IMG/VR virus record: IMGVR_UViG_2681813233_000010
DNA: 25,181 nt
DNA from: a virus
Taxonomy: Duplodnaviria > Heunggongvirae > Uroviricota > Caudoviricetes
Strand: one strand, 5' to 3'
Shown here: positions 3,095 through 20,539 of the stretch, in pieces
How positions within the stretch are numbered: the first letter of the stretch is position 1
How the letters are laid out: each line of letters begins with the position of its first letter
The notes under the pieces: model-generated
What the model was told of the DNA's origin: nothing
What the model saw: the letters and a program-made list of their open reading frames with translations, nothing else
The model's database searches: none
Position numbers and translations under genes: made by a program

Positions 3095-3328
3095 ATGTCA
3101 ACGAAGAACAGAACCCGCAGAACAACAACCCGCAACATCCGCTTTCCTAACCAAATGATTGAACAAATTAACATCGCTCTTGATCAAAAAGGGTCCGGGA
3201 ATTTCTCAGCCTGGGTCATTGAAGCCTGCCGCCGGAGACTGTGCTCAGAAAAAAGAGTTTCGCCTGAAGCAAACAAAGAAAAGAGTGACATTACTGAATT
3301 GCTCAGAAAACAGGTCAGACCAGATTGA
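3095..3328 (+). CDS. ynfO: Small ribbon-helix-helix (CopG/Arc-like) DNA-binding protein, 77 aa
   Basis: ORF MSTKNRTRRTTTRNIRFPNQMIEQINIALDQKGSGNFSAWVIEACRRRL has a basic tail, beta-strand and two helices typical of RHH; length and position match K-12 ynfO as recalled. Confidence 0.6.
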   Translation: MSTKNRTRRTTTRNIRFPNQMIEQINIALDQKGSGNFSAWVIEACRRRLCSEKRVSPEANKEKSDITELLRKQVRPD

Positions 3329-4522: not shown

Positions 4523-4793
4523 GATGTTACCGTAGTATGTGAGTATCCATCGAATAGACACCAAGCAAAAAAGCTCCCGAAGGAGCCTTCATTTTCACTT
4601 TTTCAAATCCAACGACAGACGGCTGGCATTTAAGTATTGTGAAATATTATCAAATGTAATCATCATTGATTTACAAAAGATACATTTTGCCCCGAAAGGA
4701 TTCATGTCAGAAACATCAAAAGATGATGTTCTATACTGGGAACCATGACAACACGGGCATCTAAAGTGAATATGGTTTGTAATATTGTCTACC

Positions 4794-5006
4794 TCAAAGC
4801 GCCACTACATGAACAGCGGCAGGACCTTTAGGTCCGTTCTCAATACCAAATTCAACTTCCTGATTCTCAGTTAATGTTTTGAAATCGTTGCTCTGAATTG
4901 CTGAGAAATGGACAAACACATCTTTGCTGCCATCTTTCGGCGTGATGAAACCAAAACCTTTTTCAGGGTTAAACCATTTCACTAAACCAGTCATTTTGTT
5001 AGACAT
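4794..5006 (-). CDS. cspI: Cold shock protein CspA-family paralogue, 70 aa
   Basis: [38 protein letters not shown]... carries the cold-shock RNP motifs; position next to the lysis genes matches Qin cspI. Confidence 0.85.
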
Positions 5007-5367
5007 AATTATTACCTTTTGAAGAAATTAGCCCTTGGGCAGAATGGTCCGAAAAAAATATCAGAGAGAAAAACCAACAAGGAAATCTCAAGAGGTACAA
5101 ATAATAAAATTATAACAATGACTGCTTCAGATAAATTTGTAACAAACCAGAACACCATTAACGCATGATTAACCACCCATAGCAAGGATTACTTTTGTAA
5201 AGAAAAACACAGCAATGAAAGAATAGCTTTATTTATTAATAAAACGTGTCATTCTGATTAAGACCTTTTATCTTACCCTTAAGATTTCAGGAATTTTGGC
5301 TCATGGAAGAGTCCTTTTTATTTAAATTTTACATTCCGCGATGTAAATGTTCCGATTTAATATTACC

Positions 5368-7474: not shown

Positions 7475-7616
7475 ATTTTGCCAAATATGCTAGCCATTGT
7501 TTCATGTATTGGACCTCCTTACTTTTTATTAAAGAGATCCAATATTCACTACTCTGTCCGTATCTCTACTCAGGCATCAGCCTTCTTCGTTATCGTATAC
7601 AGACGAGCGATGAATT

Positions 7617-7832
7617 TTAATCAGTAATGATGACATTTGCTGCTGCAGGACCTTTAGCACCACTCTCTATAGAGAAGGTAACCTTTTGACCTTCAAATAA
7701 GGTTCGATAATTATCATTCTGAATCGCAGAAAAATGCACAAACACATCTTTACTACCATCAACAGGAGAAATAAAGCCGAAACCTTTATCAGCGTTAAAC
7801 CATTTTACTAAACCAGTCATTTTATTTGACAT
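7617..7832 (-). CDS. cspB: Cold shock protein, 71 aa
   Basis: [71 protein letters not shown]; divergent from cspF as in Qin. Confidence 0.85.
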
Positions 7833-8132
7833 TCTACATTCCTTAACTTGAGCCTTTCGGCATAAATGGTTTGCATAACAGAAACGACTTCGTACTTAAT
7901 TGGAGAGACTCAAAGAAGGAATAAGTGAATAACACCTGAAATGAGAACTGCTTTAGTAAACTACTTCGTATATCGTCTGTTCTTCAAACCGACGCAATCA
8001 TTAACGCATAGTTGAACATATGAAGCAATGTTTATTTTAGACATCCAGCCATCTTCAACCCCATCAAAAAACTATAGCTTTCTTCAGGAACGTGTGTATA
8101 GTGCGCCAAGTTATCAGTATTAAGGAATTTTT

Positions 8133-10583: not shown

Positions 10584-10862
10584 TTACCTCCAGATCCGTT
10601 GCTGGAAAGTGCGGGACGCACGTGGTGGGCGTTCGGAATAAGGCAGCCTGACAGAGATTATCCAGTGCCGATAGTCGAGACTGAGAGCTTTCTTAACCTC
10701 GAACCCGCGCCTGCGGTAAGAATGAATCAGCCATTCGGCCTGTTCTGCAGTGCATGGAGGGTGCTGGAACCATTCAGACTTGAATGCGTGAGAATACCGC
10801 CCGTGCGTGCAGGCAAGAACGGGCGAATTATCAGAATTGTAATATTTTGCGTTGCGTGCCAT
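10584..10862 (-). CDS. Hypothetical protein, 92 aa, upstream of ydfU
   Basis: ORF MARNAKYYNSDNSPVLACTHGRYSHAFKSEWFQHPPCTAEQAEWLIHSYRRRGFEV... with GGAG Shine-Dalgarno 7 nt before ATG 10862; stop abuts the ydfU GTG. Confidence 0.6.
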   Translation of the reverse strand: MARNAKYYNSDNSPVLACTHGRYSHAFKSEWFQHPPCTAEQAEWLIHSYRRRGFEVKKALSLDYRHWIISVRLPYSERPPRASRTFQQRIWR

Positions 10863-10928
10863 CGGTTTTCTCCGGTGGCACGGTGTTACTCAGCGGGAGT
10901 TCAGCCCCGCGCAAGATTGTAGATGAGT

Positions 10929-11180
10929 TTATTCTCCTGAAAAAGCAGAAAAGCCAGCTTTTATTCCGATCTCTTTCAATGCCTGTAATGAAGTGACAAA
11001 CTCACCTTCGCGCAAGATAAATCCGTCCGTGACCCGAGCATCCACAAAATTAATTAACGCAGCCCCATTCTTTCGCAAACACATAATGCGGTAATGACTA
11101 ACAAGATTTCCATTTTCAACGCACACAGCATAGAGGCCATCTTCACAAAAAATTTTACGCAGTTCTTCGATGTTCATCAT
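10929..11180 (-). CDS. rem: Rem-like small prophage protein, 83 aa
   Basis: MMNIEELRKIFCEDGLYAVCVENGNLVSHYRIMCLRKNGAALINFVDARVTDGFILREGEFVTSLQALKEIGIKAGFSAFSGE; GGAAGGA Shine-Dalgarno. Confidence 0.7.
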   Translation of the reverse strand: MMNIEELRKIFCEDGLYAVCVENGNLVSHYRIMCLRKNGAALINFVDARVTDGFILREGEFVTSLQALKEIGIKAGFSAFSGE

Positions 11181-11295
11181 CAGAATCCTTCCGGATAATT
11201 AGCTCTCCCCTTTAAGGGACCATCCCTCTTATCCCTGCGCGCTACTTAAGTATTTTTGATTCTATTCCGGCACCGTCCAGAACTTCAAACGCGTT

Positions 11296-11328
11296 GAAAA
11301 TAAAAACAAAAACCCGCCGAAGCGGGTT
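11296..11328 (-). terminator. Rho-independent terminator downstream of hokD (stem AACCCGC / GCGGGTT, loop TTCG, then TTTTGTTTTTATTTT)
   Basis: Minus strand reads AACCCGCTTCGGCGGGTTTTTGTTTTTATTTT about 70 nt after the hokD stop. Confidence 0.65.
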
Positions 11329-11396
11329 AAGTGCGGGTGCGTTGAGGATGCCTGCCACATCAGAGGTGGCGAGGGATTTCTCCCCCGCCGGGTCTC

Positions 11397-11552
11397 TTAC
11401 TCCTCAGGTTCGTAAGCTGTGAAGACAGCGACCTCCGTCTGGCCGGTTCGGATTCGTACCTCGCAGAGGTCTTTCCTCGTTACCAGTGCCGTCACTATGA
11501 CGGTTAAACAGATGACGATCAGGGCGATTAACATCGCCTTTTGCTGCTTCAT
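11397..11552 (-). CDS. hokD: Hok/Gef-family type I membrane toxin, 51 aa
   Basis: Hand translation MKQQKAMLIALIVICLTVIVTALVTRKDLCEVRIRTGQTEVAVFTAYEPEE; AGGAGAAG Shine-Dalgarno; below the ORF-track size cutoff. Confidence 0.9.
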   Translation of the reverse strand: MKQQKAMLIALIVICLTVIVTALVTRKDLCEVRIRTGQTEVAVFTAYEPEE

Positions 11553-11623
11553 AGCCTGCTTCTCCTGTCAACGCAAAGCAGAAGTGTCACCTTCGGTGCG
11601 AAACAGAGATGTCATGCTTTGGT

Positions 11624-11911
11624 TCAGAGAATGCGTTTGACCGCCTCGCTATATACTTCCGAGCGTTCTCTTTTCCCAACAGAAATCACGAAAACGACAA
11701 CTTTCTCGTCTATAACCTGGTATACAAGGCGATAGCCTGAAGACCGGAGCTTAATCTTGTAACAATCAGGCATACCACGGAGCTTGTTTGCTTCAATCCG
11801 GGGTGACTCAAGTACTTCAACCAGCTTCTTTTTCAACTGTTCACGTACCGTCGAGCCCAGCTTTCGCCATTCCTTTAGTGCCCGCTCGTCAAAATCCAGA
11901 AAATACGCCAT
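11624..11911 (-). CDS. relE: RelE mRNA interferase toxin, 95 aa
   Basis: MAYFLDFDERALKEWRKLGSTVREQLKKKLVEVLESPRIEANKLRGMPDCYKIKLRSSGYRLVYQVIDEKVVVFVISVGKRERSEVYSEAVKRIL; TGATG overlap with relB. Confidence 0.95.
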   Translation of the reverse strand: MAYFLDFDERALKEWRKLGSTVREQLKKKLVEVLESPRIEANKLRGMPDCYKIKLRSSGYRLVYQVIDEKVVVFVISVGKRERSEVYSEAVKRIL

Positions 11912-12150
11912 CAGAGTTCATCCAGCGTCACACGTACTGGCTTAGGATTACGAAGCCGTTCTTTCACTATCTCCACAAGTTCAGCATCTTCATCACTCAG
12001 GAGTGTCTGTTTGAACGGCAAGCGTTCATTGTCAGCGATATACTCGAGCATGAGACGAAGCGCTTCAGAAGGAGTTACACCCATTTTTTCAAGCGCGGCG
12101 TAAGAACGCGCTTTAAGTTCATCGTCAATACGCAGGTTAATGCTACCCAT
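11911..12150 (-). CDS. relB: RelB antitoxin (RHH), 79 aa
   Basis: MGSINLRIDDELKARSYAALEKMGVTPSEALRLMLEYIADNERLPFKQTLLSDEDAELVEIVKERLRNPKPVRVTLDEL; GAGGTG Shine-Dalgarno. Confidence 0.95.
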   Translation of the reverse strand: MGSINLRIDDELKARSYAALEKMGVTPSEALRLMLEYIADNERLPFKQTLLSDEDAELVEIVKERLRNPKPVRVTLDEL

Positions 12151-12160
12151 GTCTTACACC

Positions 12161-12186
12161 TCTTGTAATTACAAATGTCATTACAA
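12161..12186 (-). promoter_or_regulatory. relBE operator/promoter region (relO-like repeats CTTGTAATTACAAATGTCATTACAAG)
   Basis: Repeated TTGTAAT / ATTACAA elements 10-35 nt upstream of the relB start codon. Confidence 0.55.
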
Positions 12187-12480
12187 GTATCGCACTACAA
12201 CATGCTTAGGGCAAGTCACGAAGGAAGTCAGAAAGTAGTCGTAAGAACGGTGATCACTGTCCGCTTTGTGCCAGGAGCAGCCATTGCTAAGTCCATCCTG
12301 TATTGTGCAGGTCAGCTCGTTTTTAAAGAGTCCGGCCATCATCTTACTGGTACAGACACCATATACTTTGTGACGGTCAGGCTACATATGCACAACTCAA
12401 CTTATTCATCTATTTTTTGCTTTAGCATGTCAGTGTTGCTTTCTCGTCGGCGGGTGAGCGGTGACCTGACCTGTCGATAA
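12175..12480 (+). CDS. Hypothetical ORF, 101 aa, possibly the ydfV equivalent; coding status doubtful
   Basis: ATG-initiated ORF of the same length as K-12 ydfV as recalled; starts inside the relBE operator and has no convincing RBS. Confidence 0.3.
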   Translation: MSLQVSHYNMLRASHEGSQKVVVRTVITVRFVPGAAIAKSILYCAGQLVFKESGHHLTGTDTIYFVTVRLHMHNSTYSSIFCFSMSVLLSRRRVSGDLTCR

Positions 12481-12632
12481 AGGAACGTAACACGTTTTAT
12501 GCAACACCCGCATGCGGCAGAAAATTATTGCCGAACGTTTACCCCTGTCAACAAGCTTTACTTTCTGAGGCGCGCCAGCCCGCGAGGAAAACAATCTGAA
12601 CATCAAACAATTAATGACACAAGAAATACGAT

Positions 12633-12659
12633 TAAAGATTTTTTTGTGCATGCCGATAG
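12633..12659 (+). promoter_or_regulatory. Sigma-28 (FliA) class 3 flagellar promoter: TAAAGATT-N11-GCCGATAG
   Basis: Near-consensus match to TAAAGTTT-N11-GCCGATAA about 25 nt upstream of the flxA Shine-Dalgarno. Confidence 0.75.
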
Positions 12660-12682
12660 TGCTTTTTTAAAAGGAGAAATCT

Positions 12683-13015
12683 ATGTCTGTCACAATTCAG
12701 GGAAATACCTCAACCGTTATTTCAAACAACTCCGCCCCGGAAGGAACATCAGAAATAGCCAAAATCACAAGACAAATTCAGGTGCTGACTGAAAAGCTTG
12801 GGAAAATCTCATCGGAAGAGGGGATGACGACACAGCAGAAAAAAGAAATGGCTGCATTGGTACAGAAGCAAATTGAAAGCCTCTGGGCTCAACTGGAGCA
12901 GTTGTTAAGGCAGCAGGCAGAGAAAAAGAATGAAGACGCGACAGTTCAGCCTGATAAAAAAGAAGAGAAAAAAGACGATACAAATACCGCTGGCACCATT
13001 GATATTTACGTCTAA
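12683..13015 (+). CDS. flxA: FlxA (FliA-regulated protein), 110 aa
   Basis: MSVTIQGNTSTVISNNSAPEGTSEIAKITRQIQVLTEKLGKISSEEGMTTQQKKEMAALVQKQIESLWAQLEQLLRQQAEKKNEDATVQPDKKEEKKDDTNTAGTIDIYV; AAGGAG Shine-Dalgarno. Confidence 0.9.
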   Translation: MSVTIQGNTSTVISNNSAPEGTSEIAKITRQIQVLTEKLGKISSEEGMTTQQKKEMAALVQKQIESLWAQLEQLLRQQAEKKNEDATVQPDKKEEKKDDTNTAGTIDIYV

Positions 13016-13029
13016 GTGACAGCCGTATT

Positions 13030-13054
13030 GTGGCCCTCATCGGGCCACTTTTCG
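13030..13054 (+). terminator. Rho-independent terminator of flxA (GTGGCCC-TCATC-GGGCCAC then TTTTCG)
   Basis: 7-bp GC-rich stem plus T-run 15 nt after the flxA stop. Confidence 0.65.
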
Positions 13055-13093
13055 CCATCAGCCTTTTCTTTAAAGACATATTATCTTTGTATC

Positions 13094-13143
13094 ATTTCTG
13101 ATAGTTAACATTACAAGAATTTCTGATAGTTAACATTACAAGA
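13094..13143. repeat. Perfect tandem direct repeat, 2 x 25 bp (ATTTCTGATAGTTAACATTACAAGA)
   Basis: Two identical adjacent copies read directly; core AGTTAACATTAC recurs inverted at 14965-14976. Confidence 0.9.
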
Positions 13144-13476
13144 TATAAGTAATGGACGCACTCCCAATTAGTCTATTTAAATCGCCACGAGTTTAACTGA
13201 CAACCCATGATCAATTATGAATTGCAACTATTTCTGTAGTCACTTTTGTGGGGACAGTCCACAAAACTGCCAACTTCCGCTTCTTGCTCTTAGCGGACAT
13301 TAGCATAGGCTATTTACCATAACGCCTCATTACGCGCACCGCCCAGACTGACTCAGCGCGTTTCTGGCATATCCCCGGTAAAACAAGTAACAAACCACCC
13401 GAAAATGAACACCAGAAACGCGACTTAAGAATCTACCCTATGAATGGATATGCACTCAACCGAATCGATCTTGGTT

Positions 13477-14790
13477 TCAATCTTTTTTATCGGGATCAGG
13501 CTTCTTTTTAGGTAACTTCGGGGGCTTAACTTGCTGATGACTTTGCGTTCGGCGCGTAAGCCAGGGATGGTCAGCTTTAGGTTTAACATAGTATTTTGAG
13601 CGTAAATCAATACGGGCATTATCCACTCGTTCATGGACACTCTTTTCATCATCCAGTGGTATAGGCTCCGGGCCATCAACATACTTTTCCCAGCCCAGCG
13701 CTTTCCCGTCATACAGAACGTTAATTTCACCGTCAAAGTTCTCGCATACAGTAACAACCGAATGCCTAAGTCGATATCCCCGGCCCTCACTGCGTACCTG
13801 AAACGCACTGCTTTTGTACTGGAAAGTGAGATTTTTAGACAGAACGCGCTTCGCCTGTAGGCTGAAGATATAACCCAGTTCCTCTTCAGAATGGTGCACA
13901 TCAAGATGAGCATTATCAGTAGTACGAGGCGACGTAGCGAACCGGTTGTTATAGGCTTCAATAAAGGTCGGCAACCATGCATTTGCTGTTTCAATATCAC
14001 TGATATTCTGAAGCCGCATTTCTTTGACCAGCCTGTCCTGTAGTGTCTGATTGGCGCGCTCTACCCGCCCTTTTGCCTGCGGGCTGTTGGCATGGATTGG
14101 CTCGATGCCCAGTGTCTTTATCGCACGAGTGAACTGGGTCAGCTCACCTTCCCGCTCTGGGTTATTTACCCTGAATATACTGTGTCTATCAGAGTAGAGA
14201 GCGAGCGGTACGCCATGATCATTAAGGTAACCCCGGAGGGTTTCCATGTAAGCCCGGGTTGTTTCAGCAGGCACAAAACGCAACGCCATCAACGCACTGG
14301 TGGCATCATCAATGAAAACGATCAGTGTACATCTGGGGCCTCGATTTTCAAACCAGTCATGAGGTGAGCCATCAATCTGGATCAGTTCACCGTAAGATGG
14401 TCGTCGCATGCGGCGTTGATATATACGGGCAATTTTACGACGGCGTTCACGCCATAACCCCTCTTCTATCATCCACTTTCTGAGAGTTTCAACGGATAAA
14501 GATAAACCGTGTATCTCGCGCAATTTTTCGCACGCAAACGTAGGTCCAAAATCAGCGTAACGGCCTTTGAGGAGTGAAATTACTGTTGCTCTGAATTCAG
14601 TAGAAAAGGAATTATTAGGACGCTTTCCACGTCGGTGGGAAACCAGACCAGAAGGCCCTTCATTTCTATACCGTTGCACCAGACGTTTAACCTGCCGAAT
14701 AGAAATGCCAATGCGTGCCGCAGCTTGTTCCTGAATAATCTGAAGTCGGTGGAGTTCCTTATGACTCATCGTAACAGTCTCTTTGATCAT
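13477..14790 (-). CDS. DDE transposase with N-terminal HTH and retroviral-integrase-like (rve) catalytic core, 437 aa; family unassigned (IS481/ISNCY-like)
   Basis: MIKETVTMSHKELHRLQIIQEQAAARIGISIRQVKRLVQRY (HTH) ... LIVFIDDATS ... LALYSDRHSIF ... SPQAKGRVERANQTLQDRL (D, D, E signature region). Confidence 0.85.
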   Translation of the reverse strand: MIKETVTMSHKELHRLQIIQEQAAARIGISIRQVKRLVQRYRNEGPSGLVSHRRGKRPNNSFSTEFRATVISLLKGRYADFGPTFACEKLREIHGLSLSVETLRKWMIEEGLWRERRRKIARIYQRRMRRPSYGELIQIDGSPHDWFENRGPRCTLIVFIDDATSALMALRFVPAETTRAYMETLRGYLNDHGVPLALYSDRHSIFRVNNPEREGELTQFTRAIKTLGIEPIHANSPQAKGRVERANQTLQDRLVKEMRLQNISDIETANAWLPTFIEAYNNRFATSPRTTDNAHLDVHHSEEELGYIFSLQAKRVLSKNLTFQYKSSAFQVRSEGRGYRLRHSVVTVCENFDGEINVLYDGKALGWEKYVDGPEPIPLDDEKSVHERVDNARIDLRSKYYVKPKADHPWLTRRTQSHQQVKPPKLPKKKPDPDKKD

Positions 14791-15124
14791 GAAAAATCCC
14801 CCAGAGAATTGTCTGGGGACATTTTAGAATGGTTCAAAGGGGACATTACAGCTTGGTGTTAACAATAGCCTGCTTCTCCGTGCCTTTCGGCACGTAAGAG
14901 GCTAACCTACATGTGTCTAGCATGAAATTGGCCTCAGATTAATGTTAAGCGTCTTGCAGGACGCGTAATGTTAACTGGGGCTTTTCTCTATCTGCCGTTG
15001 GTGTCCATGCCCGAGGCAGATAGCCTCAAGCACCCGCAGTCATTCTACTTAACTAAGATTTCCCCGCAAACCGTTTTTGTCCAGCACAGTAAATATCCAA
15101 CTAAACCAATGGAGTTCGCTGTAT

Positions 15125-15304
15125 TTACCGCCAGTATTCAATGCACATGACCGCCATGAACACCCCTAAAAAAAGGGCATTTATATATCCAAATATTAAT
15201 ATCAAAACATCAACTTTTTCCATATACCTTGCTGTGAAGATGATGGGCATACATGATGCGAACAACCAGAACGCAACAAACAAAAACTGCAATGCGTTTT
15301 TCAT
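15125..15304 (-). CDS. Small membrane protein, 59 aa, two predicted TM helices
   Basis: MKNALQFLFVAFWLFASCMPIIFTARYMEKVDVLILIFGYINALFLGVFMAVMCIEYWR from ATG 15304 with AGGAGG 5 nt upstream; the track ORF extends to a GTG at 15343. Confidence 0.5.
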   Translation of the reverse strand: MKNALQFLFVAFWLFASCMPIIFTARYMEKVDVLILIFGYINALFLGVFMAVMCIEYWR

Positions 15305-15908
15305 TATTCCTCCTACAATCAATGTGCAATTACATTTAAACACACCTCAATTTGGCCGGACATATAAATATCTAAACCAGAAAAAATCACTTACATAGCG
15401 TTACAAACTCTTTAGTCTAAAGGTTCATCGTAAAACATTCCCCATACTTATCAGTCCGTTCCGCGCCAGGTAGCTCATTGCCTTATCTGGCAACCTGTAA
15501 TCAGGTTTCCGCTTTTTCAGTTGGCTGGTCGTTTAACCGACATAGTTAATCCATTAATCTAGTTGCCGGATGTTGGTGGATTTTCGCGTTTTAGTTGTTC
15601 ATAAAAGTGCACAGCTTTAACCAGTTCTTCTGATGTAACTGGGACTGGTGAGGCAGTGAATAAGGCCTGAATTTGATAGTTCGGCCTGTCGTTACAATCC
15701 TCTTTTTTCGGTACATATTTCCAGTCACCAGACCACTACTTCCCCTGAAAGTCCGTAACGCCTTTTTTCACGTAGCGATATCGCCATGCCACTGGTTTTG
15801 CTTGCCCCGCCGTTTCATGCCCTTCCTGATAATTAATCTCGCTCATTCATCGCCCCACTCATCACAATATGCTTCGACCGGAGTTTTTCCCGCTTCATAG
15901 TCATCACG

Positions 15909-16034
15909 CTAGGATTCGACATCAGCAGCACTTCCACCGCGTAACTCACCATAGTCCATTAATAGTTCATCCCGCTCTTCAAAACTGATGTTATATTTAG
16001 CTGAACAAAAATCAGCCACTTTGTTCTTCCTCAT
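15909..16034 (-). CDS. Candidate small ORF, 41 aa
   Basis: Hand translation MRKNKVADFCSAKYNISFEERDELLMDYGELRGGSAADVES; weak RBS; same orientation as neighbours. Confidence 0.2.
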   Translation of the reverse strand: MRKNKVADFCSAKYNISFEERDELLMDYGELRGGSAADVES

Positions 16035-16083
16035 CGTCTTTTATTTCGTGGTATGAGTAATTGCAGTAGTTAAAGAAAATTTC

Positions 16084-16194
16084 TTATGCTCCGTCATGAA
16101 TTTCCTCAGGTGTTGCGTCATCGTCCACTTCGAATACATCCTCAAAATCTCCACCAGCTATTCCCGTTTCAATAATAATTTTGAACTTTCGCAT
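16084..16194 (-). CDS. Candidate small acidic ORF, 36 aa
   Basis: Hand translation MRKFKIIIETGIAGGDFEDVFEVDDDATPEEIHDGA; AGGAGG separated from the ATG by a GC hairpin. Confidence 0.3.
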   Translation of the reverse strand: MRKFKIIIETGIAGGDFEDVFEVDDDATPEEIHDGA

Positions 16195-16456
16195 TTCACT
16201 ACCGCCCTTTCGGGCGGCCTCCTGATGTTCTGAGGGTGCAGAAATCCATCCGGTTAAGGATTAAATTTTATTTACAGAACTGAATTTAATTATTCAGATA
16301 TACGTATCTGTAGCCTTACGAATCTACTCACTGGATGCCTCTTTCATAAAAATAATCCAGTGGGTTTTATCGTTTTTTCCCTGTTCGTTGACAGATAACA
16401 GGTTTTCTGTCTGTCAGTGCCAGAATCTGGCTTACCGGTATTTGCGTTTCATTCCA

Positions 16457-16813
16457 TTAAAAAATCAGAACGCCGTGCGGCCTCAACACCCGAAAGGCTT
16501 CTTTAAATCTCTGTCGCGAATCATCACGCCAGGCATCTTTATTCAGCCGTCCATATTTCTTTCCCATCCAGGCGTTATCACCAACACTCTCAAGATGCGG
16601 AGGGTCTAATACAACCATCGAAAAAGATGCGTCTGCAAATGATAATGCACGAAAATCTGCGATAATGTCAGGGCTGATAATCAAGCGTCTCCCATTGCGT
16701 AATGTGTATCCTTCTTTTCTGATATCGCTGAATATCGCCCGTTCGTCAGACTTATCGAACCAGAACATGCGGCTGCCACAGCACATATCAAGAATGGTTG
16801 CCGGTGCACTCAC
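16457..16813 (-). CDS. SAM-dependent DNA methyltransferase-like protein (motif I-like DMCCGSR, motif IV DPPH), 118 aa; possibly truncated
   Basis: MSAPATILDMCCGSRMFWFDKS...SFSMVVLDPPHLESVGD...VLRPHGVLIF; GTG start overlapping the stop of the upstream ORF (GTGA); too short for a target-recognition domain. Confidence 0.5.
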   Translation of the reverse strand: MSAPATILDMCCGSRMFWFDKSDERAIFSDIRKEGYTLRNGRRLIISPDIIADFRALSFADASFSMVVLDPPHLESVGDNAWMGKKYGRLNKDAWRDDSRQRFKEAFRVLRPHGVLIF

Positions 16814-20481: not shown

Positions 20482-20539
20482 TTTCTGGTGACGTTTGGCG
20501 GTATCAGTTTTACTCCGTGACTGCTCTGCCGCCCTTTTT
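20482..20539 (+). ncRNA. dicF: DicF small regulatory RNA (Hfq-dependent sRNA that represses ftsZ) with intrinsic terminator
   Basis: TTTCTGGTGACGTTTGGCGGTATCAGTTTTACTCCGTGACTGCTCTGCCGCCCTTTTT matches the DicF sequence as recalled; GGCGG / CCGCC terminator stem then T-run. Confidence 0.85.

What the first reader, a model, noticed from the sequence alone, without database searches (positions are those of the whole stretch)
15125..16230. Uncharacterised stretch between the IS and the methyltransferase-like gene: 2-TM mini-protein, small ORFs and a hairpin between SD and start codon
This interval matches no K-12 Qin gene I recognise. On the minus strand there is a 59-aa two-helix membrane protein with an AGGAGG site (15125-15304) and, upstream, tightly spaced small ORFs (16084-16194, 15909-16034, 15833-15904), two of which start MRK. 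At 16201-16224 the mRNA would read AGGAGG-CCGCCC-GAAA-GGGCGG-UAGUGAA-AUG: a GNRA-tetraloop hairpin sits exactly between the Shine-Dalgarno and the start codon, which would bring them to functional spacing only when folded (as in T4 genes 38 and 25). Nin-region islands like this often hold toxin-like, anti-defence or superinfection-exclusion functions, but here that is only an inference from position.
Basis: partly seen in the sequence, partly recalled or inferred. Interest (0 to 1): 0.55.

Follow-up and report, generated by a model that had tools for sequence, protein, structure and literature searches.

The report
Decayed prophage genes, hairpin RBS, hidden gene
This stretch of a cryptic E. 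coli prophage holds three dead phage genes, but also a widely reused RNA hairpin that probably brings a distant ribosome-binding site next to the start codon, and a real, never-annotated 59-residue membrane-protein gene that always sits just upstream of a hok toxin locus.

Summary
All the sequence features exist at the stated coordinates, but they are three different things.

(1) The "tightly spaced small ORFs" are fragments of three overlapping lambdoid-phage genes (DUF7167/phrog_1997, phrog_519, phrog_660). Each carries a nonsense codon in this Qin-type lineage. The third ORF is out of frame, and the "MRK" starts are coincidence.

(2) The SD-hairpin-AUG is real. The stem forms with P≥0.97. 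It persists in 37 distinct leaders, precedes at least five unrelated genes in ≥120 phage contigs, and always lies 6-9 nt before a start with no other SD. It is most likely a T4 gene 38/25-type split ribosome-binding site. Covariation alone is not significant, and here it heads a dead gene.

(3) The 59-aa ORF is a genuine gene that RefSeq never annotated. A paralog with 41% identity, the same length and no gaps gives dN/dS≈0.19. It is intact in 69 of 73 loci and is found only in Escherichia/Shigella. It always lies ~258 nt upstream of hok/sok. Its function is unknown.

In passing: the neighbouring "IS" is a 3.3-kb IS1202-family transposon carrying flxA-ydfV-relBE. It split an ancestral hok/sok locus, with a 15-bp duplication, and so created relBE-hokD.

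The parts
16195..16262 (-). Conserved ~68-nt non-coding leader (AATCCTTAACCGGAKGGATT...), ending in the SD, the hairpin and the spacer
   Evidence: Conserved in 37 distinct versions and in 19 named phages, never annotated. An in-frame TAA and a 1-nt spacer length variant (L087) show it is not coding.
16218..16223 (-). Shine-Dalgarno AGGAGG, 23 nt upstream of the AUG
   Evidence: Variants seen are AGGAGA and AGGGGG.
16201..16218 (-). G(CCGCCC)GAAA(GGGCGG)U hairpin: 6 G-C pairs, a closing G.U pair and a GNRA tetraloop
   Evidence: Delta-G is -12.4 kcal/mol for the 16-nt core and -15.5 with the closing pair. Stem pairing probability is 0.97-1.0 in four leader contexts. It is kept in all variants, -5.4 to -15.9 kcal/mol.
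16012..16194 (-). DUF7167 / phrog_1997 pseudogene (60 codons), with TAA at 16086-16084 where intact phages have AAA
   Evidence: RefSeq 'internal stop'. Alignment to phage 640R1. 37 loci carry this stop and 49 are intact.
15843..16019 (-). phrog_519-like pseudogene (58 codons): GTG where intact phages have ATG, TAG at 15911-15909 where they have TGG. It overlaps gene 1 by 8 nt and gene 3 by 4 nt (ATGA).
15425..15846 (-). phrog_660-like pseudogene: TAG at 15738-15736 (CAG in intact relatives), plus downstream truncation/frameshift
   Evidence: RefSeq 'frameshifted; internal stop'. phrog_660 E=6e-29. Intact versions read ...FQGKQW....
15125..15304 (-). Intact, unannotated gene for a 59-aa two-helix membrane protein; its SD AGGAGG is at 15314-15309
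   Evidence: Paralog with 41% identity, 59 codons and no gaps. dN/dS 0.19 and codon-position identity 0.58/0.71/0.48. Shuffle controls 8/20000 and 84/20000. 69 of 73 loci intact. AF2 model is a helical hairpin.
14864..15035 (-). 5' half of a hok/sok locus (hok mRNA leader, mok start and sok region), cut at the hok SD/ATG
   Evidence: Rfam RF01794, 104 bits against a gathering score of 59. Alignment to intact hok loci.
14865..14879 (-). Left copy of the 15-bp target-site duplication GGAGAAGCAGGCTAT; the right copy is at 11551-11565, just before the hokD start codon
   Evidence: Exact direct repeat, spacing 3314. Junction sequences.
11566..14864 (-). 3.3-kb IS1202-family (ISEsa1-like) transposon carrying flxA, ydfV, relB and relE. 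It lies outside the finding's coordinates but defines its lower boundary.
   Evidence: Terminal repeats match at 22 of 30 positions, the best match in the window. An independent insertion with a different TSD sits in a plasmid hok locus.

Best explanation
The interval is the decayed accessory ('nin-like') segment of a Qin-type cryptic lambdoid prophage. It has three unrelated layers.

(A) A three-gene, translationally overlapped early operon (DUF7167/phrog_1997, phrog_519, phrog_660). Each gene has been killed by a nonsense codon in this vertically inherited lineage.

(B) At the head of that operon sits a conserved, portable translation-initiation cassette. A strong SD is followed at once by a very stable GC tetraloop hairpin, and then by 6-9 A/U-rich nucleotides and the start codon. 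I infer that the folded hairpin loops out 16-18 nt, so the SD, 23 nt away in the linear sequence, ends up about 6-7 nt from the AUG. This is a split ribosome-binding site of the kind demonstrated for T4 genes 38 and 25. In this window it is a relic attached to a dead gene.

(C) An intact, unannotated gene encodes a 59-residue helical-hairpin inner-membrane protein, probably with both termini in the cytoplasm. [quoted passage not shown] It has stayed under purifying selection while its neighbours decayed. My best guess at its role is a membrane-acting prophage accessory protein that works alongside or modulates Hok (exclusion, abortive infection or maintenance).

Shown: the anatomy, the pseudogene status, the conservation and portability of the hairpin, the coding status of the 59-aa ORF and its linkage to hok. 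Inferred: that the hairpin enhances initiation, and any function of the 59-aa protein.
For: (A) RefSeq pseudogene flags. Base-by-base alignment to intact phage genes shows AAA>TAA and TGG>TAG, and CAG>TAG. Pfam and PHROG hits are found on the repaired products. 49 intact against 37 broken loci, with all broken copies in the window's lineage.

(B) The hairpin pairing probability is 0.97-1.0. 37 distinct leaders all keep a hairpin with the same boundaries. DUF7167 homologs at 72-78% identity keep SD, hairpin and a 6-7 nt spacer, while the spacer sequence is rewritten. There are two independent compensatory pairs (G-C>A-U, and C-G>A-U in L090). Loops are GAAA, GGCA, GAGA and GUCA. Most single changes in the stem are C>U, which keeps a U.G pair on this strand only. 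The unit precedes at least 5 unrelated genes in at least 120 viral contigs, with the start always 6-9 nt after the stem, no SD in the spacers, and no ORF covering the hairpin. The T4 precedent is 22 to 5 nt and 27 to 11 nt (PMC3014915).

(C) A diverged paralog of identical length. dN 0.45, dS 2.3, omega 0.19; second > first > third codon-position identity; all other frames closed. Shuffle controls. 0 differences in the ORF against 5 in the flanks within the paralog group. 69 of 73 loci intact, with the hok ATG 257-259 nt downstream in 26 loci and ~3.55 kb downstream, across the transposon, in 7. The paralog is also followed by a hok remnant. AF2 model with two helices.
Against: (B) Formal covariation is not significant. 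94% of cells pair, but shuffles do as well, and A.C intermediates outnumber the compensated pair. Some variants have weak stems (-5.4 kcal/mol). Predicted SD accessibility differs between variants. Conservation could come from recombination at a shared 'linker' rather than from selection on translation. No expression data exist.

(C) Within the Qin-type group all four substitutions are non-synonymous (A16V, V31I, I37M, Y40H), and one lineage weakens the SD to AGGGGG. Several frameshifted or truncated versions are in the databases. There is no detectable promoter or terminator of its own. There are no homologs outside Escherichia/Shigella in 1.84 billion representatives and no family or fold match, so any functional statement is a guess.
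Confidence: 0.72

Rival explanations
1. One reading: the small ORFs are functional mini-proteins, and with the 2-TM protein they form a toxin, anti-defence or exclusion island.
For: Their position in a nin-like region. ORFs with ATG starts exist.
Against: The ORFs end at stop codons that interrupt conserved 58-60-codon and longer genes, which are intact in about half of related loci. RefSeq flags them as pseudogenes. One listed ORF is out of frame. There are no PADLOC hits.
Confidence: 0.04
2. The SD-hairpin unit is conserved for reasons other than bridging the SD and the AUG. Candidates are: a recombination 'linker' at module boundaries in mosaic lambdoid phages; an mRNA-stabilising or processing hairpin; or an operator for a translational repressor. 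In these cases the downstream genes would start SD-independently on A/U-rich spacers.
For: Mosaic joints fall immediately 5' of the SD (L080) and inside the loop (L070/L072). The unit joins different upstream and downstream modules. Covariation is not significant.
Against: The start codon lies 6-9 nt after the stem for five unrelated genes, which a linker or a stabiliser would not require. The SD is always kept directly against the stem. The loop sequence varies (GAAA, GGCA, GAGA, GUCA), which argues against a sequence-specific loop-binding repressor. C>U changes that preserve U.G pairing only in the sense RNA predominate.
Confidence: 0.25
3. The hairpin is a transcription signal: an intrinsic terminator, or a boxB/nut-like antitermination site at the start of the accessory region.
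For: A GC-rich stem with a GNRA-type loop resembles lambda boxB. In lambda, terminators lie between the replication genes and the nin genes (my own knowledge).
Against: There is no U-tract on either strand. The loop is a tetraloop, not a boxB pentaloop, and no boxA-like sequence lies upstream. It occurs twice within one operon in ArgO145, directly before start codons.
Confidence: 0.04
4. The 59-codon ORF is a chance open frame in T-rich DNA, not a gene. This is the implicit view of RefSeq, which leaves it unannotated, and of phage annotators, who call the opposite strand instead.
For: It is never annotated by PGAP in ~1,570 plus ~1,040 genomes. ORFs of this size are common by chance. Within the group, substitutions are 4 non-synonymous to 0 synonymous.
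Against: Two copies at 59% nucleotide identity keep the same start, stop and length without gaps, with omega 0.19 and second > first > third codon-position identity. All five other frames, including the 85-codon opposite-strand ORF annotated as 'hornerin', carry stops in the paralog.
Confidence: 0.07

Closest known systems
Split (hairpin-bridged) translation-initiation regions of phage T4 genes 38 and 25 (Nivinskas et al. 1999; Malys & Nivinskas 2009; reviewed in PMC3014915)
   Same: The SD is too far from the AUG in the linear sequence (22 and 27 nt in T4, 23 nt here). A stable hairpin between them reduces the spacing to the functional range (5 and 11 nt in T4, ~6-7 nt here). The hairpin is conserved among related phages.
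   Different: This one is in temperate lambdoid coliphages, not T-even phages. It is a portable cassette, reused before at least five unrelated genes and sometimes twice per genome, rather than a feature of one gene junction. It has no experimental support yet. In this window it heads a pseudogene.
[quoted passage not shown]
   Same: The leader downstream of the 59-aa gene matches Rfam sok (RF01794). Intact relatives carry mok/hok 258 nt after the 59-aa stop codon.
   Different: No described hok/sok locus includes an upstream 59-aa two-helix protein gene. Here the locus is split by a transposon, so the leader/sok half and the hok coding half (hokD) are 3.3 kb apart.
Small two-helix membrane toxins and phage membrane proteins, such as GhoT (57 aa, type V toxin), class II holins/pinholins and small superinfection-exclusion morons (my own knowledge)
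   Same: Similar size, two hydrophobic helices, prophage location.
   Different: No sequence or profile similarity. Not in a lysis cassette. No cognate antitoxin identified. Toxicity untested.
ISEsa1 / IS1202 family insertion sequences (Harmer & Hall 2023, PMC10132070)
   Same: A 437-aa transposase annotated as ISEsa1 family. Imperfect terminal repeats that begin TGT and end ACA.
   Different: ISEsa1 is listed as 1,609 bp with no detectable TSD. The element here is 3.3 kb, carries flxA-ydfV-relBE between the transposase gene and the right repeat, makes a 15-bp TSD, and sits at the same position of two different hok loci.

Membership tests
Split (hairpin-bridged) ribosome-binding site, T4 gene 38/25 type | A strong SD lies too far (more than ~15 nt) from the start codon in the linear sequence | tested here: met
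   AGGAGG is 23 nt before the AUG, and 22-25 nt in all other contexts.
Split (hairpin-bridged) ribosome-binding site, T4 gene 38/25 type | A stable intervening hairpin brings the effective spacing to ~5-11 nt | tested here: met
   Delta-G is -12.4 to -15.5 kcal/mol, stem probability is at least 0.97, and 6-7 nt remain.
Split (hairpin-bridged) ribosome-binding site, T4 gene 38/25 type | No alternative SD at canonical distance | tested here: met
   The spacers (UAGUGAA, UAAGAA, UAAUGA, UAAUGAAAA, UAACAAAUA and others) are A/U-rich. The only G-rich stretch is the paired 3' arm of the stem.
Split (hairpin-bridged) ribosome-binding site, T4 gene 38/25 type | The structure is conserved among relatives, with compensatory change | tested here: inconclusive
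   The structure is kept in all 37 leaders and before 5 gene families. Two compensatory pairs exist, but the covariation measures do not exceed the shuffles.
Split (hairpin-bridged) ribosome-binding site, T4 gene 38/25 type | Destabilising the stem lowers translation, and restoring it rescues translation | not testable with these tools
   This needs reporter fusions, toeprinting or structure probing.
DUF7167 (PF23768) / phrog_1997 | Profile match above the curated threshold | tested here: met
   51.6 bits against a cut-off of 24.4; phrog_1997 E=1.6e-29. Both were obtained on the sequence with the stop codon repaired.
DUF7167 (PF23768) / phrog_1997 | Intact reading frame of ~60 codons | tested here: not met
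   TAA at codon 37 in the window, so it is a pseudogene member.
[quoted passage not shown] | A hok mRNA leader/sok region recognisable by covariance model | tested here: met
   RF01794, 104.1 bits against a gathering score of 59, at 15035..14864.
[quoted passage not shown] | The leader is contiguous with the mok/hok coding sequence | tested here: not met
   The leader ends at 14865. The matching hok CDS is at 11552..11397, beyond a 3.3-kb insertion.
Type I toxin (considered for the 59-aa protein) | A small hydrophobic membrane peptide | tested here: met
   Two predicted helices, residues 2-26 and 28-58.
Type I toxin (considered for the 59-aa protein) | A cognate antisense or overlapping RNA antitoxin | tested here: inconclusive
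   No Rfam hit over the gene. The only + strand terminator-like site (15492-15517) is not conserved in relatives.
Type I toxin (considered for the 59-aa protein) | Toxicity on expression | not testable with these tools
   This needs an induction experiment.
Class II holin / pinholin (considered for the 59-aa protein) | Two TMDs, and a location in a lysis cassette next to an endolysin | tested here: not met
   Two helices are present, but the neighbours are accessory genes and hok, not lysis genes. There is no holin family hit.
IS1202-family transposable element (side observation) | Terminal inverted repeats (TGT...ACA), a family transposase, and flanking target duplication at independent sites | tested here: met
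   Repeats match at 22 of 30 positions. ISEsa1-family annotation. The TSDs are GGAGAAGCAGGCTAT (window) and GGAGAAGAAGGCCAT (plasmid).

The most novel reading that the evidence does not exclude
The 59-residue helical-hairpin protein is a previously unrecognised protein partner of prophage hok/sok modules, for example a modulator or immunity factor for Hok, or a second membrane effector. It has been kept by selection in two independently decayed prophage remnants (the Qin-type and the Rac att-site remnant), which together are present in roughly 2,600 of 5,426 complete E. coli genomes, including Nissle 1917. In parallel, the SD-hairpin unit would be a modular 'plug-in' ribosome-binding site that lambdoid phages reuse when they shuffle accessory genes.
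Probability: 0.2. Interest if true: 0.72.

Novelty: new member of a known kind. Interest (0 to 1): 0.52.

Why it matters
There are three modest but concrete gains.

1. The hairpin-bridged RBS is known experimentally from only a handful of T4 genes. Here it appears as a portable cassette in front of at least five unrelated genes in temperate coliphages, including Stx2a-converting phages. That would make it a general device rather than a curiosity. It also offers a simple natural test set for how the 30S subunit accommodates structured spacers.

2. A conserved small membrane-protein gene that automatic annotation consistently misses sits in about half of complete E. coli genomes, in one paralog or the other. 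Both well-used strains (ATCC 8739, E. coli W derivatives) and a probiotic (Nissle 1917) carry one. It is always next to hok, which makes a functional link directly testable.

3. The region documents how relBE-hokD arose. A cargo-carrying IS1202-family transposon landed in the hok SD/start region, and its 15-bp duplication regenerated the hok RBS. The literature I could read notes that relBE integrated into hokD, but gives neither the ends nor the TSD of the element, nor its recurrence in a plasmid hok locus.

For the window itself, the upstream genes are dead and nothing suggests an active toxin or defence island.

Tried and rejected
- The first alignment-based locus search failed because the alignment was too diverse. 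It was redone with five sequences.
- Covariation statistics on the hairpin are not significant. I do not use them as proof.
- An upstream UCCU:AGGA or CCCUC:GGAGG pairing that would sequester the SD is predicted inconsistently between variants, and its columns are invariant, so it could not be tested. I dropped it as a claim.
- N-terminally extended DUF7167 entries (84-93 aa) would put the hairpin inside coding sequence. They are artefacts of one sequence variant, or of copies whose ATG is mutated.
- An upstream ORF ending at the TAA/TAG after the hairpin (translational coupling): the frames are only 11-32 codons with no start codon in the consensus.
- Intrinsic terminator or boxB readings of the hairpin: no U-tract, a tetraloop, no boxA.
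- The within-group dN/dS test of the 59-aa ORF had too little divergence (at least 98% identity) and gave a misleading 4:0 non-synonymous result. The diverged paralog resolved the question.
- The + strand terminator-like site at 15492-15517, as a possible antisense-RNA end, is not conserved.
- Pfam, PHROGs, PADLOC and NCBIfam, the exhaustive profile search and a Foldseek search on the 59-aa protein found nothing beyond the two E. coli groups.
- A literal peptide search of the paper library gave no hits.
- Whether the shorter plasmid copies (ending at window 13272) are complete ISEsa1 or truncated elements was only partly resolved.
Full report
**Context**

The window is a Qin-type cryptic lambdoid prophage of E. 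coli. The queried stretch is 100% identical to E. coli ATCC 8739, where the gene order is dicA, dicC, ydaT-like, O-like, DUF977, methyltransferase, [this interval], ISNCY transposase, ydfW, flxA, ydfV, relBE, hokD, rem. About 1,200 of 5,426 complete E. coli genomes hold at least 80% of the interval.

**The small ORFs**

- RefSeq annotates window 16194..16012 as 'DUF7167 family protein, internal stop'. It annotates 15846..15425 as 'hypothetical protein, frameshifted; internal stop'.
- A related phage, vB_EcoS-640R1 (94.5% identity), has three intact overlapping genes of 60, 58 and 85 codons at this place.
- The base-by-base alignment shows what broke each gene. The window's 36-codon ORF is DUF7167 stopped by TAA at 16086-16084, where the phage has AAA. 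The 41-codon ORF is gene 2 stopped by TAG at 15911-15909, where the phage has TGG. Gene 3 carries TAG at 15738-15736, where intact relatives have CAG.
- Gene 2 starts in intact phages at an ATG that is GTG (16019) in the window. The ATG at 16034 that gives 'MRKNK' is a lineage-specific in-frame ATG inside the end of the DUF7167 frame.
- The repaired products match PF23768/phrog_1997, phrog_519 and phrog_660, all of unknown function.
- Among the fetched loci, 49 have an intact DUF7167 and 37 carry the same codon-37 stop. Gene 2 is intact in 45 and broken in 36. All broken copies belong to the window's lineage.
- These are therefore fixed pseudogenes of a vertically inherited cryptic prophage, not mini-proteins.

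**The hairpin between the SD and the start codon**

- The motif is exactly as described.
- The 16-nt core folds at -12.4 kcal/mol, or -15.5 with the closing G.U pair. It forms with probability 0.97-1.0 in four full leader contexts.
- The arrangement occurs once in the window, against 0.22 expected per simulated window. Its mere occurrence is therefore weak evidence.
- The comparative evidence is stronger. 37 distinct ~95-nt leaders from 80+ loci all keep a hairpin with identical outer boundaries, at -5.4 to -15.9 kcal/mol.
- DUF7167 homologs of only 72-78% identity keep the SD (AGGAGG, AGGGGG or AGGAGA), the stem and a 6-7 nt spacer. Meanwhile the spacer sequence is rewritten, and the loop is GAAA, GAGA, GGCA or GUCA.
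- Two compensatory changes occur: G-C>A-U in six loci, and C-G>A-U in L090. Most single changes are C>U, which keeps a U.G pair only in the sense RNA.
- Formal covariation is nevertheless not significant. 94% of cells pair, but shuffles match this, and A.C intermediates outnumber the compensated pair.
- Long database entries that would put the hairpin inside coding sequence are artefacts. An in-frame TAA and a 1-nt spacer length variant show that the leader is non-coding.
The unit precedes at least five unrelated genes: DUF7167; a 72-aa membrane protein; Ead/Ea22-like proteins; an MAELTK... family; and an MQEIKEN... family.
- It occurs in two different upstream contexts. The start codon always lies 6-9 nt after the stem, the spacers are A/U-rich with no SD of their own, and no ORF covers the hairpin.
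- ArgO145 carries it twice in one operon. Nineteen named phages have the leader, including Stx2a-converting phages, mEp460 and Rac-SA53, and none annotates it.
- This pattern is what a split ribosome-binding site predicts. [quoted passage not shown]
The main rival is that the unit is conserved as a recombination linker or stabiliser. In this window the device heads a dead gene.

**The 59-codon ORF**

- At first the evidence was against it. RefSeq never annotates it in ~1,570 genomes. All copies are at least 98% identical. The four substitutions seen are all non-synonymous. Truncated versions exist, and no Pfam or PHROG family matches.
- A translated search of plasmid records then found a full-length match of only 41% identity. 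It lies in a chromosomal segment between ttcA and uspF, a decayed prophage remnant at the Rac attachment site with integrase and DUF1627 fragments.
- That copy is again exactly 59 codons and aligns without gaps (71% positives). It ends in the same IE(Y/C)WR and is followed by a decayed hok fragment.
- It is present in ~1,040 genomes, including Nissle 1917, again unannotated.
- Between the two copies dN is 0.45, dS is 2.3 and omega is about 0.19. Identity by codon position is 0.58, 0.71 and 0.48. Every other frame, including the opposite-strand ORF that phage annotators call 'hornerin', has stops in one copy or the other.
- In column shuffles, both copies stay open in 8 of 20,000 trials, and the codon-position asymmetry is reached in 84 of 20,000.
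- Within the paralog group the ORF has no differences, against five in 300 nt of flank.
- In 73 fetched loci of the Qin type, 69 keep the intact ORF. The hok ATG lies 257-259 nt downstream in 26 of them, and ~3.55 kb downstream, across the transposon, in 7. The rest lack enough flanking sequence to tell.
- AlphaFold gives a helical hairpin, helices 2-26 and 28-58, with mean pLDDT 74.
- An exhaustive profile search of 1.84 billion representatives finds only these two E. coli groups. Defence, NCBIfam and fold libraries give nothing, and the peptide strings do not occur in the searchable literature.
- Conclusion: this is a real, lineage-restricted small membrane-protein gene, physically coupled to hok/sok, that outlives its prophage neighbours. 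Its function is unknown. I guess at a membrane-acting accessory role linked to Hok, with low confidence.

**The boundary with the 'IS'**

- Rfam places the hok mRNA leader/sok region at 15035..14864. It stops at GGAGAAGCAGGCTAT, where the transposase-bearing element begins.
- The hok coding half that follows this leader in intact phages matches window 11566..10812 at 97-98%. That is the relBE-linked hokD.
- The same 15 bp flank a 3,299-bp segment (14864..11566). Its ends are imperfect inverted repeats matching at 22 of 30 positions, the best match in the window.
- The same unit (97.8% identity), with a different 15-bp duplication (GGAGAAGAAGGCCAT), sits at the same position of a different hok locus on an Enterobacter IncF plasmid.
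- It is therefore an ISEsa1-like IS1202-family transposon with flxA, ydfV and relBE as passengers, and it targets the hok SD/start region. The duplication regenerates the hok RBS, which explains relBE-hokD (relF).
- Harmer & Hall list ISEsa1 as 1,609 bp with no TSD. Shorter plasmid copies end in a similar right repeat.
- That relBE integrated into hokD has been noted before (PMC6379469). I found no description of the element's ends, its TSD or the parallel plasmid insertion. The original 2016 paper was not readable here.

**Verdict**

- The small ORFs are ordinary pseudogene debris.
- The hairpin is a credible and unexpectedly modular new example of a known but rare translational device.
- The 59-aa ORF is a genuine new small-protein family of unknown function.
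- Nothing supports an active toxin or anti-defence island in this window.

Noticed in passing
window 11551-14879 (transposon 11566-14864; TSD copies 11551-11565 and 14865-14879); L095 3073-6373: The 'IS' is a 3.3-kb ISEsa1-like IS1202-family transposon carrying flxA, ydfV, relB and relE. It is flanked by a 15-bp target duplication and split an ancestral hok/sok locus at the hok SD/ATG, which created relBE-hokD. An independent copy with a different 15-bp TSD sits at the same position of a plasmid hok locus in Enterobacter roggenkampii. Published ISEsa1 is listed as 1,609 bp without a TSD.
   Followed up: partly
L097 3001-3180; L100 (E. coli Nissle 1917) 3122-3301: An unannotated 59-codon paralog of the window's 2-TM gene lies in a decayed prophage remnant between ttcA and uspF, followed by a hok fragment. 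It is present in ~1,040 complete E. coli genomes.
   Followed up: yes
window 16330-16813 (-): The 'class I SAM-dependent methyltransferase' (118 aa, 16813..16457) ends at a TAA after ...HGVLIF. The frame then continues plausibly (WNETQIPVSQILALT...) with a further in-frame stop, so this gene is probably also truncated by nonsense mutation in this lineage.
   Followed up: no
window 16280-16297 (-): A perfect 18-bp palindrome, CTGAATAATTAAATTCAG, lies at the point where homology to phage 640R1 and many other loci begins (a mosaic joint). Variants of it (…TTTAG…) recur upstream of the leader in many loci.
   Followed up: no
L188, L203, L205, L222 2568-2786 and others: A conserved 72-aa membrane protein (MKHYLEKNYPRKSRTTEFLFF... 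/ MVTLFRKKYPRK...) is one of the genes headed by the same SD-hairpin cassette. In ArgO145 it is annotated 'putative sugar acetyl transferase inhibitor'.
   Followed up: no
window 15141-15398 (+); L003 3843-4094; L002 5063-5314: Phage records annotate the opposite-strand 83-85-codon ORF over the 59-aa gene (as 'hornerin' or hypothetical). That frame has stops in the paralog and is almost certainly a mis-call.
   Followed up: yes
window 13094-13143 (+): An exact tandem duplication of a 25-mer (ATTTCTGATAGTTAACATTACAAGA x2) lies between the transposase gene and flxA, inside the transposon. Its origin is unknown.
   Followed up: no
window 15492-15517 (+): A terminator-like hairpin plus T-run on the + strand, upstream of the 59-aa gene. 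The T-run is deleted in 640R1 and L093, so it is probably not functional.
   Followed up: partly
window 7601-7993 (-), 4767-5151 (-), 20483-20534 (+): Rfam hits to two cspA-type thermoregulator leaders and to DicF, as expected for Qin.
   Followed up: no
L085 (MAG 'Collinsella sp.' JAIHTM010000290.1); phage record PP818812.1 'Actinobacillus phage vB_Apl-pPE4': Both carry E. coli lambdoid-prophage sequence nearly identical to this region (88% DUF7167 identity; a 100% identical leader). That suggests mis-binning or contamination, or a mislabelled host.
   Followed up: no
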